NCBI RefSeq assembly: GCF_030013205.1
Contig: NZ_CP122648.1
Strand: one strand, 5' to 3'
DNA: 64,000 nucleotides
Origin: Escherichia coli
GTDB lineage: Bacteria; Pseudomonadota; Gammaproteobacteria; Enterobacterales; Enterobacteriaceae
Every line of letters starts with the position of its first letter. The stretch's first letter is position 1. Made by a program: the position numbers and the translations under genes. This document shows, one piece after another, positions 18,124 through 18,441 of this stretch. Below the pieces are notes generated by a model, which saw only the letters and a list, made by a program, of their open reading frames with translations, was not told the origin of the DNA and made no database searches.

Positions 18124-18145
18124 GCCGCTAGAGCGGCCTTTTCTT
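18124..18145. terminator. Bidirectional terminator between convergent genes
   Basis: GGCCGCTAGAGCGGCC followed by TTTTCTTT. Confidence 0.5.
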
Positions 18146-18402
18146 TATGTGGTTTGTTTTCGTAATTGTTCGGCACAATAGTCGAGATGTGTTTGCAGAT
18201 CCTGCATAGACATCTGTGAGCTGGTGACGTAGTTAATCAGTGCAGTCAGTTCGGCAAGTGGGCCATCGACATTAAATCCATCCTTATCGAGATCCCGGAG
18301 TAATTTCATCAAGTGCGATCCCTCCACCAGTGATCTGACGCCTCCCGGCGTGTGAATCCTTTCGGTAAATCCGTCTTCCAGTGGATAGTGATACTGCTGC
18401 AT
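18145..18402 (-). CDS. Small stand-alone antirepressor-domain protein, paralog of the C-terminus of the 16307-16999 antirepressor; probably LexA-regulated
   Basis: About 40 percent identity to the Ant C-terminal region (e.g. GVRSLVEGSHLMKLL...AELT...DLQTH versus GVLGLTENSLLMNLL...AELT...DIQTH); likely ATG at 18400-18402 with GGAG RBS. Confidence 0.55.
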   Translation of the reverse strand: MQQYHYPLEDGFTERIHTPGGVRSLVEGSHLMKLLRDLDKDGFNVDGPLAELTALINYVTSSQMSMQDLQTHLDYCAEQLRKQTT

Positions 18403-18421
18403 CTTATCTTCTCCATGCAAT

Positions 18422-18441
18422 AACTGTATATTTATACAGTA
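18422..18441. promoter_or_regulatory. LexA (SOS) box AACTGTATATTTATACAGTA
   Basis: CTGT-N8-ACAG with AT-rich spacer, about 18/20 to the E. coli consensus TACTGTATATATATACAGTA, about 20 nt upstream of the small antirepressor-like gene. Confidence 0.7.

What the first reader, a model, noticed from the sequence alone, without database searches (positions are those of the whole stretch)
18145..18441. Near-consensus LexA box directly upstream of a small stand-alone antirepressor-domain gene
AACTGTATATTTATACAGTA (18422-18441) is a CTGT-N8-ACAG SOS box about 20 nt upstream of an 85-91 aa ORF. That ORF is clearly paralogous to the C-terminal domain of the Bro-N antirepressor at 16307-16999. LexA-controlled antirepressors are an established induction route for prophages whose repressors are not RecA-cleavable (e.g. 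186 Tum, Gifsy-type). Here the module appears to be a truncated or minimal antirepressor placed under SOS control, next to a second full-length antirepressor under different control.
Basis: partly seen in the sequence, partly recalled or inferred. Interest (0 to 1): 0.75.

Follow-up and report, generated by a model that had tools for sequence, protein, structure and literature searches.

The report
SOS-controlled prophage antirepressor Ant (known)

Summary
AACTGTATATTTATACAGTA (18422-18441) matches the 20-nt LexA consensus at 18 of 20 positions. It is the only such site in the window and in the whole prophage. It ends 19 nt before the ATG (18402) of an 85-aa ORF on the minus strand.

That ORF is 88% identical to Ant of Salmonella phage SPC32H. 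It matches the Ant chain of the solved Rep-Ant complex (PDB 5D50) at E 1.3e-47. It also sits at the same place, divergent from the tailspike gene of an epsilon15/phiV10-like prophage. The box is kept at this position in 81 of 85 related loci: its CTGT and ACAG arms stay constant while the spacer varies.

The cognate repressor is 43% identical to SPC32H Rep, has two helix-turn-helix (HTH) regions and has no Pfam match to an autocleavage domain. The mechanism is therefore the published one: LexA cleavage lets Ant be made, and Ant takes the Rep tetramer apart.

The paralogy with the C-terminus of the Bro-N protein is also real (42% identity, E 7e-16). That second gene has its own control, an isrK/C4 antisense-RNA leader plus Rep-operator-like palindromes.

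"Truncated" is the wrong word, because 85-86 aa is the normal full length of Ant. This copy of the prophage has lost its terminase, portal and capsid genes. Novelty: already known.

The parts
18422..18441 (.). LexA (SOS) box. Plus strand AACTGTATATTTATACAGTA; on the ant strand TACTGTATAAATATACAGTT.
   Evidence: 18 of 20 matches to the consensus, unique in the window, 0 of 100 shuffles. It is the only such site in the complete prophage of the sister strain and in SPC32H. It is kept at the same position in phiV10, TL-2011b, SPC32H, epsilon15, Tyrion and BUCT554 and in 81 of 85 loci.
18436..18464 (-). Inferred ant promoter: -35 TGGATA (18464-18459), 17-nt spacer, extended -10 TG (18444-18443), -10 TACTGT (18441-18436). 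The -10 is the left arm of the LexA box, so bound LexA would cover the -10 and the start site.
   Evidence: Inference from the sequence and from the invariant columns CTGGATA, TG and TACTGT in the nine-phage alignment. The sigma-70 consensus scan did not call it. No transcription start site data were available.
18411..18414 (-). Shine-Dalgarno GGAG, 8 nt before the ATG of ant.
   Evidence: Read directly from the sequence. GGAG is conserved in seven of the nine phages aligned.
18145..18402 (-). ant: 85-aa antirepressor, orthologue of SPC32H Ant and epsilon15 gp19.
   Evidence: 88% identical to SPC32H Ant. Matches PDB 5D50 chain E 'Anti-repressor protein' at E 1.3e-47 over residues 2-85. Same position next to the tailspike gene.
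18122..18139 (.). GC-rich hairpin between the stop codons of ant and the convergent 242-aa ORF. It is terminator-like on the plus strand. On the ant strand it lacks a T run.
18478..18494 (.). Perfect palindrome ATTACC-N5-GGTAAT, a Rep-operator-like site 36 bp from the LexA box in the ant-tailspike intergenic region. It lies upstream of the inferred ant -35 and more probably serves the tailspike side.
   Evidence: invariant ATTACC...GGTAA. The equivalent site in the epsilon15 record is annotated 'protein_bind: repressor, lysogeny'.
1..167 (-). First 55 codons of rep, the predicted target of Ant. The gene runs off the left end of the window.
   Evidence: Translation MKSIQDVRRQNLND.... Identical to WP_000836290 of the sister strain. 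The full protein is 42-43% identical to SPC32H Rep, matches PDB 5D50 chain A at E 4e-42, and has two HTH regions and no peptidase domain.
16307..16999 (-). Second antirepressor: Bro-N domain (residues 16-106) fused to an Ant-like C-terminal domain (residues about 149-225, nt 16325-16555).
   Evidence: Pfam Bro-N at 4e-13. The C-terminus matches the window's Ant at E 7e-16 and PDB 5D50 chain E at 9e-14. phrog_130 'anti-repressor Ant' and phrog_450.
17154..17230 (-). isrK-like Hfq-binding RNA with its own terminator, in the leader of the Bro-N gene. It overlaps a sub-threshold match to the a1/b1 targets of C4 RNA.
   Evidence: Rfam RF01394, 74.7 bits against a gathering score of 50. Terminator-like hairpin at 17173-17160.
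17048..17135 (-). C4-type antisense RNA, between isrK and the Bro-N start codon.
   Evidence: Rfam RF01695, 78.6 bits against a gathering score of 45, full length. The same isrK+C4 pair precedes the Bro-N gene in TL-2011b, phiV10 and Tyrion, and is absent from phages that lack that gene.
17266..17375 (.). Two Rep-operator-like palindromes (17266-17282 with 1 mismatch, 17359-17375 perfect) upstream of the isrK/C4/Bro-N unit. The first abuts a promoter-like site (-35 TTTACA 17265, -10 CATAGT 17237) whose predicted start coincides with the isrK 5' end.

Best explanation
The 85-aa gene is ant, the SOS-inducible antirepressor of an epsilon15/phiV10-like (Uetakevirus-type) prophage integrated beside guaA in a porcine ETEC-type E. 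coli chromosome. In undamaged cells host LexA binds the box at 18422-18441. The box overlaps the -10 and the start region of the ant promoter, so ant stays silent. DNA damage activates RecA, LexA cleaves itself, and ant is transcribed. Ant binds the prophage repressor Rep, a two-HTH protein with no autocleavage domain. In the SPC32H system an Ant tetramer splits the DNA-binding Rep tetramer into two dimers that fall off the operators, and lytic genes are then derepressed.

Shown here: the box, its uniqueness and conservation, orthology of Ant and Rep to the solved SPC32H pair, synteny, and the absence of a peptidase domain in Rep. Taken from the literature: LexA control of ant and the Rep-disassembly mechanism in SPC32H. 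Inferred: the exact promoter hexamers, and that the E. coli Ant still binds its more divergent Rep.
For: The box has 18 of 20 consensus matches, is unique, and appeared in 0 of 100 shuffles. It is the only LexA-like site in the full prophage and in SPC32H. Ant is 88% identical to SPC32H Ant, whose record names it 'ant, anti-repressor protein', and matches PDB 5D50 chain E at 1.3e-47. Rep matches PDB 5D50 chain A at 4e-42 and 5D4Z (Rep C-terminal domain) at 4e-20. Rep has HTH domains only. The gene lies in the same slot, divergent from the tailspike, in eight reference phages. The box is positionally conserved across Escherichia, Salmonella and Enterobacter phages, in an intergenic alignment whose mean column identity is 73%. 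It is present in 81 of 85 loci, with invariant CTGT/ACAG arms and at least seven spacer variants. [quoted passage not shown] Another held paper summarises the structural work: Rep binds DNA as a tetramer, and tetrameric Ant binds two Rep dimers and breaks the tetramer.
Against: There is no experimental data for this E. coli copy. Rep here is only 42-43% identical to SPC32H Rep while Ant is 85-88% identical, so the Ant-Rep contact is inferred, not shown. The promoter hexamers are weak by consensus and the generic scan did not call them. The primary papers (Kim and Ryu 2013; Kim et al. 2016) are not in the held library, so their details come from citing papers and from my recollection. The prophage in this window lacks the terminase, portal, protease and most of the capsid gene, so the switch cannot lead to virions here.
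Confidence: 0.9

Rival explanations
1. The module is intact but functionally stranded in this strain. The prophage has lost its packaging and head genes, so SOS induction of Ant can no longer give productive induction. It would give at most excision, replication, expression of the still-intact lysis genes, or action in trans on a related co-resident or superinfecting phage, as Gifsy antirepressors do. This qualifies the outcome of the best explanation, not the identity of the parts.
For: Compared with sister strain ETEC4071, the window lacks 6.8 kb (terminase small and large subunits, tRNA-Arg, portal, protease, most of the capsid gene) and a further 1.3 kb. The same arrangement occurs in the complete genome of ETEC4079, so it is natural. 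Holin, endolysin and Rz-like ORFs remain. Trans-acting antirepressor crosstalk is documented for Salmonella prophages.
Against: Nothing shows that the remnant is induced, or that another Rep-type prophage is present. The module is 100% identical to copies in prophages that retain these genes, so this is recent decay rather than a new role.
Confidence: 0.6
2. The LexA box controls the divergent tailspike gene (ATG 18598) or both directions, and the small ORF is only a bystander.
For: The box is palindromic and lies in a shared 177-nt (18421-18597) intergenic region.
Against: The box is 19 nt from the ant ATG but 157 nt from the tailspike ATG. A separate invariant block (GGTAATAGAAT) and the Rep-operator-like palindrome lie on the tailspike side. 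In SPC32H the adjacent gene is the characterised LexA-dependent ant.
Confidence: 0.03
3. The match is a chance AT-rich palindrome with no LexA binding, and the small ORF is expressed constitutively or under Rep control only.
For: The minimal CTGT-N8-ACAG pattern alone is not rare: 2 found against 0.72 expected. A Rep-operator-like site lies 36 bp away.
Against: The 20-mer has only 2 mismatches and appeared in 0 of 100 shuffles. The arms are invariant across genera while the spacer and flanks drift. Constitutive antirepressor expression would be incompatible with stable lysogeny.
Confidence: 0.02

Closest known systems
Ant-Rep antirepression system of Salmonella phage SPC32H (Kim and Ryu 2013, J Virol 87:11775; Kim et al. 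2016, PNAS 113:E2480; PDB 5D50 and 5D4Z)
   Same: Ant is 88% identical over its full length. The gene slot is the same, divergent from the tailspike. The LexA box lies at the same distance from the start codon. The Rep family is the same, with two HTH regions and no peptidase domain. The operator half-sites are the same (ATTACC...GGTAAT).
   Different: The host is E. coli. Rep is only 42-43% identical. A second antirepressor with an Ant-like C-terminal domain and an isrK/C4 leader sits nearby, which SPC32H lacks. This prophage copy has deletions in its structural genes.
Coliphage 186 Tum, Fels-2 Tum and the Gifsy GfoA/GftA LexA-controlled antirepressors
   Same: The logic is the same: a LexA box represses a small antirepressor gene, and the product inactivates a non-cleavable repressor by protein-protein contact.
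   Different: No sequence relationship was detected. A tblastn search of Ant against 50,697 phage records at E<=1e-5 gave 35 records, none of them a P2/186-like or Gifsy-type phage. The genome position and phage type also differ (podovirus, next to the tailspike).
P1/P7 immI (c4 antisense RNA-icd-ant) and Gifsy-1 isrK-orf45-anrP (relevant to the neighbouring Bro-N gene, not to the LexA-controlled gene)
   Same: Full-length Rfam matches to C4 and isrK lie in the leader of an antirepressor gene. In Gifsy-1 the isrK promoter drives a downstream antirepressor-like gene that is translationally silent until IsrK acts.
   Different: No icd or orf45 homologue was identified here. The antirepressor carries an Ant-like C-terminal domain. 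Rep-operator-like palindromes flank the unit. Function is untested.
P22 immI Ant (mnt-arc-ant)
   Same: An antirepressor gene sits next to the tailspike gene of a podovirus.
   Different: The protein is unrelated: the small Ant gets no P22_AR Pfam domain, and the Bro-N protein gets only a sub-threshold P22_AR_N match. P22 ant is controlled by Mnt, Arc and sar RNA, not by LexA.

Membership tests
SPC32H-type Ant (epsilon15 gp19 family; phrog_450) | Full-length sequence homology to the structurally solved Ant (about 86 aa) | tested here: met
   88% identity. PDB 5D50_E at E 1.3e-47 over residues 2-85. phrog_450 at 1.4e-47.
SPC32H-type Ant (epsilon15 gp19 family; phrog_450) | LexA box overlapping the ant promoter, immediately upstream of the gene | tested here: met
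   Box at 18422-18441, 19 nt from the ATG. SPC32H has its only LexA-like site at the aligned position. Present in 81 of 85 loci. Overlap with the -10 is inferred.
SPC32H-type Ant (epsilon15 gp19 family; phrog_450) | Conserved genomic slot: after the internal-virion/injection genes, divergent from the tailspike gene | tested here: met
SPC32H-type Ant (epsilon15 gp19 family; phrog_450) | Cognate Rep of the SPC32H type (N-terminal HTH, C-terminal oligomerisation domain, no RecA-dependent autocleavage domain) | tested here: met
   The first 55 codons are in the window. The full protein from the identical sister prophage is 42% identical to SPC32H Rep, matches PDB 5D50_A at 4e-42 and 5D4Z_A at 4e-20, and has only HTH families in Pfam.
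SPC32H-type Ant (epsilon15 gp19 family; phrog_450) | LexA binds the box; ant is induced by DNA damage; Ant binds Rep and releases it from DNA | not testable with these tools
   Known for SPC32H only, through citing papers. Needs EMSA, qRT-PCR and pulldown on the E. coli proteins.
186 Tum / Gifsy-type LexA-controlled antirepressors | Sequence homology to Tum, GfoA or GftA | tested here: not met
   tblastn of Ant against all phage records returned 35 Escherichia, Salmonella, Enterobacter and Klebsiella phage records and none from 186/P2-like or Gifsy-type phages. There are no Pfam or NCBIfam matches. It works like them but is not a member by sequence.
Bro-N antirepressors (the neighbouring gene 16307-16999) | Bro-N (PF02498) N-terminal domain | tested here: met
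   E 4.2e-13 over residues 16-106. phrog_130, phrog_245 and phrog_2899 'anti-repressor Ant'. The small LexA-controlled Ant lacks this domain.
P1/P7 immI-type C4 antisense RNA control (the neighbouring gene) | C4 RNA and its target elements in the leader of the antirepressor operon | tested here: met
   C4 at 78.6 bits (gathering score 45) and isrK at 74.7 bits (gathering score 50). The a1/b1 target model scores 39.9 bits, below its gathering score of 46.7. An icd-like coupling ORF was not looked for.

The most novel reading that the evidence does not exclude
The prophage carries two proteins with the same Rep-binding (Ant) fold under different inputs. The stand-alone Ant is under LexA. A Bro-N::Ant-domain fusion is under an isrK/C4 RNA leader and Rep-operator-like palindromes. 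If the fusion also targets Rep, or co-assembles with Ant, which works as a tetramer, the pair would form a two-stage switch. A small SOS-triggered pulse of Ant would relieve Rep, which would derepress the fusion gene and lock the decision in. The RNA leader would add a second, SOS-independent gate. Such a paralogue-based feed-forward antirepressor circuit has not, to my knowledge, been described for this phage group.
Probability: 0.2. Interest if true: 0.45.

Novelty: already known. Interest (0 to 1): 0.15.

Why it matters
The finding confirms that a tool-free reading correctly recognised an SOS-controlled antirepressor switch. Its practical value is for annotation. This gene is labelled 'hypothetical protein' in every row shown from the search that found the module in about 530 of 5,426 complete E. 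coli genomes. PHROGs lists its family as 'unknown function', and Pfam and NCBIfam have no model for it. Yet it is the orthologue of a structurally solved antirepressor. Marking it as ant would flag these common phiV10/TL-2011b-type prophages, found in EHEC and ETEC strains, as SOS-inducible through LexA rather than through repressor cleavage. That is relevant when DNA-damaging antibiotics are used. It adds no new biology.

Tried and rejected
- Pfam and NCBIfam scans of Ant gave nothing usable: only a sub-threshold DUF724 match and no NCBIfam family.
- The generic sigma-70 scan did not call an ant promoter. The proposed hexamers rest on conservation only.
- The three primary papers (Kim and Ryu 2013; Kim et al. 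2016; Kropinski et al. 2007) are not held. I relied on citing papers, on the database records and on my recollection.
- I first assumed the window was collinear with ETEC4071 and mis-placed its start. The failed alignment and a blastn comparison showed that the window starts inside rep and carries two deletions.
- I did not compute a LexA heterology index, because the reference site table would have come from memory.
- The search for related loci returned 80 nearly identical E. coli loci. The box-conservation count is therefore dominated by close relatives, and the cross-genus alignment is the more informative test.
- I considered that the box serves the tailspike gene, and that it is a chance palindrome. 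I rejected both on position and conservation.
- No structure prediction was run, because a solved structure of an 88%-identical protein exists.

Full report
**Observation**

The window reads AACTGTATATTTATACAGTA at 18422-18441. This differs from the 20-nt E. coli LexA consensus TACTGTATATATATACAGTA at two positions. It is the only site in the 64-kb window within three mismatches, and none of 100 dinucleotide-preserving shuffles produced one. The bare CTGT-N8-ACAG pattern is not significant on its own, with 2 found against 0.72 expected. The case rests on the full 20-mer and on conservation.

On the minus strand an ORF runs from a TTG at 18420 or an ATG at 18402 to a stop at 18145. The ATG is preceded by GGAG at an 8-nt spacing, whereas the TTG abuts the box. 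Homologues are annotated from the equivalent ATG. The product is therefore 85 aa, and the box ends 19 nt before the start codon.

The claimed paralogy is also real. The 85-aa protein aligns to residues 149-222 of the Bro-N protein encoded at 16307-16999 with 42% identity and E 7e-16.

**What the small gene is**

A tblastn search of the 85-aa protein against 50,697 phage records gave 35 records from Escherichia, Salmonella, Enterobacter and Klebsiella phages. All of those inspected are epsilon15/phiV10-type podoviruses (Uetakevirus). In Salmonella phages SPC32H and SPC32N the matching gene, at 88% identity, is annotated 'ant: anti-repressor protein'.

The protein matches chain E ('Anti-repressor protein') of PDB entry 5D50 at E 1.3e-47 over residues 2-85. 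In every reference phage examined the gene occupies the same slot. That slot lies after the large internal-virion genes and is divergent from the tailspike gene. The phages checked were SPC32H, epsilon15, phiV10, TL-2011b, Tyrion, BUCT554 and BUCT711.

The family is narrow. A full HMMER scan of 1.84 billion cluster representatives found only 50 at E<=0.001. Most are stand-alone proteins of 80-95 aa, and a few are C-terminal domains of proteins of 130-319 aa. The gene is therefore not a truncation; 85-86 aa is its native length.

**The box is under selection**

I aligned the ant-tailspike intergenic region of nine phages from four host genera. Mean column identity is 73%. The box lies at the same position in the seven Escherichia, Salmonella and Enterobacter phages. 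Only the two Klebsiella phages have a degenerate left arm (ATGT).

Among 85 loci with enough upstream sequence, 81 carry CTGT-N8-ACAG, with at least seven different spacers but invariant arms. Two of the four exceptions are the Klebsiella phages. The other two are disrupted upstream: one runs into adapter-like sequence and the other into unrelated sequence. Most of these loci are near-identical E. coli prophages, so the cross-genus alignment is the stronger evidence.

The box is the only LexA-like site in the complete sister prophage and in SPC32H.

**Promoter (inferred)**

The invariant columns suggest the following layout on the ant strand:
- -35 TGGATA at 18464-18459
- a 17-nt spacer
- an extended -10 TG at 18444-18443
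- -10 TACTGT at 18441-18436, which is the left arm of the box

LexA would then cover the -10 and the start site. The generic sigma-70 scan did not report this site, and I had no start-site data.

**The target**

The window begins inside the repressor gene. Positions 167-3 on the minus strand encode MKSIQDVRRQNLND.... The window is 100% identical to E. coli ETEC4071 over 1-4356. The full 194-aa protein from that strain has these properties:
- It is 42% identical to SPC32H Rep.
- It matches PDB 5D50 chain A ('Repressor') at 4e-42, and the Rep C-terminal domain entry 5D4Z at 4e-20.
- In Pfam it shows only helix-turn-helix families and no S24/LexA-type peptidase domain.

A repressor with no autocleavage domain fits a prophage that needs an antirepressor to respond to DNA damage.

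**Mechanism**

A held review states that in several Salmonella prophages LexA self-cleavage leads to synthesis of an Ant that inhibits the lytic repressor by protein-protein interaction, citing Kim and Ryu 2013. Another held paper summarises the structural study (Kim et al. 2016): Rep binds DNA as a tetramer, dimeric Rep binds weakly, and tetrameric Ant binds two Rep dimers and breaks the tetramer. A third describes Ant as trapping the repressor in a non-functional conformation.

From my own recollection of the 2016 abstract, not checked here, Ant contacts the Rep C-terminal domains rather than competing for the DNA-binding surface.

I therefore conclude, at about 0.9 confidence, that this locus is the E. 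coli orthologue of that system and works the same way. The step not shown is that this Ant binds this Rep. Ant is 85-88% conserved between the Escherichia and Salmonella lineages while Rep is only 43% conserved.

**The neighbouring antirepressor**

The 230-aa protein (16307-16999) has a Bro-N domain at residues 16-106. Its C-terminal domain matches the solved Ant chain at 9e-14, and 21 positions are invariant across Ant orthologues and this domain.

Its leader carries full-length, above-threshold Rfam matches to isrK (17154-17230, 74.7 bits) and C4 antisense RNA (17048-17135, 78.6 bits). There is also a sub-threshold match to the C4 a1/b1 target model. The same isrK+C4 pair precedes the Bro-N gene in TL-2011b, phiV10 and Tyrion. 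It is absent from SPC32H, epsilon15, BUCT554 and BUCT711, which lack that gene, so it behaves as a cassette.

In Gifsy-1 the isrK promoter drives a downstream antirepressor-like gene whose translation needs IsrK. From textbook knowledge, not checked here, P1/P7 immI uses C4 RNA to gate ant.

There is no LexA box here.

Of 87 loci examined, 67 carry at least two Ant-domain copies within 3 kb, some with a different N-terminal domain.

**Rep-operator-like palindromes**

ATTACC-N5-GGTAAT occurs 15 times with up to 2 mismatches, against 1.66 expected. All eight sites with up to 1 mismatch lie in the prophage part of the window:
- the rep-cro region (222)
- after the replication genes (2571, 2633)
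- flanking the Bro-N unit (16225, 17266, 17359)
- the ant-tailspike spacer (18478, a perfect match)
- before the holin genes (21334)

SPC32H shows the same pattern. The epsilon15 record annotates these sites as repressor-binding.

The site at 18478-18494 lies upstream of the inferred ant -35, so it more probably belongs to the tailspike side. The site at 17266-17282 abuts a promoter-like element whose predicted start coincides with the isrK 5' end. This suggests that Rep represses the second antirepressor unit. That is the basis of the speculative two-stage switch given as the novel case.

**State of this prophage**

Compared with ETEC4071, the window differs in three ways:
- It lacks 6.8 kb covering terminase small and large subunits, tRNA-Arg, portal, protease and most of the capsid gene.
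- It lacks a further 1.3 kb.
- It carries a 51-bp tandem duplication at 4306-4407.

The identical arrangement exists in the complete genome of ETEC4079, so it is natural. The SOS-Ant-Rep switch is intact, but it cannot yield virions in this strain. Lysis genes remain.

**Comparison and novelty**

The locus meets every sequence-level criterion for the SPC32H Ant/Rep system. It works like 186 Tum and the Gifsy antirepressors but is not related to them by sequence at the thresholds used.

The finding is correct and already known. Its residual value is for annotation. The module is present in about 530 of 5,426 complete E. coli genomes, and every row shown labels it 'hypothetical protein'. PHROGs calls the family 'unknown function'. 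Interest is 0.15.

Noticed in passing
window 17048-17230 (minus strand): Full-length Rfam matches to isrK (17154-17230) and C4 antisense RNA (17048-17135) form the leader of the Bro-N antirepressor gene. This resembles P1/P7 immI and Gifsy-1 isrK-anrP. The same pair occurs in TL-2011b, phiV10 and Tyrion, and is absent from phages without the Bro-N gene.
   Followed up: partly
window 222, 2571, 2633, 16225, 17266, 17359, 18478, 21334 (17-bp sites): The palindrome ATTACC-N5-GGTAAT is scattered through intergenic regions of the prophage (15 sites with up to 2 mismatches against 1.66 expected). SPC32H has the same pattern, and the epsilon15 record annotates these as repressor-binding sites. This suggests Rep directly controls many transcription units, including the second antirepressor and the tailspike side of the ant spacer.
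   Followed up: partly
window about 4357-5836 (junctions near 4989 and 5835): Relative to sister strain ETEC4071, the prophage has lost 6.8 kb (terminase subunits, tRNA-Arg, portal, protease, most of the capsid gene) and another 1.3 kb. The same arrangement is in the ETEC4079 genome. The prophage is defective although its SOS switch and lysis genes are intact.
   Followed up: yes
window 4306-4407: A perfect 51-bp tandem duplication (2.0 copies) at the end of the ead/Ea22-like gene. It is absent from ETEC4071.
   Followed up: no
window 17395-18123 (plus strand): A 242-aa ORF convergent with ant, with two C-terminal Cys-rich repeats that match endonuclease VII / HNH-like zinc-binding PHROG families (phrog_6762 at full length). 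It is inserted between ant and the isrK/C4 leader; in phiV10 these are adjacent on one strand. Function unknown.
   Followed up: no
Ant versus Rep across lineages (window 18145-18402; L011 13946-14530): Ant is 85-88% identical between the E. coli and Salmonella phages, while its presumed target Rep is only 42-43% identical. The operator half-sites are nevertheless the same. Possible reasons are mosaic exchange of the tail-end module, or Ant contacting only conserved Rep surfaces. This raises the question of cross-induction between heterologous prophages.
   Followed up: partly
loci L013-L092 (plus or minus 3 kb around ant): 67 of 87 loci carry two or three Ant-domain copies. In some, only the C-terminal 125 aa or so resemble the window's Bro-N protein, so the Ant-like domain is combined with different N-terminal domains.
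   Followed up: partly
L002 9223-9290 (TL-2011b): A match to P22-type sar antisense RNA (44.8 bits, gathering score 43) about 4 kb from ant in TL-2011b. No counterpart was found in the window.
   Followed up: no
window 57371-57494 (plus strand): A full-length match to the STnc490 Hfq-binding sRNA (146 bits) in the host chromosome part of the window. It is unrelated to the finding.
   Followed up: no
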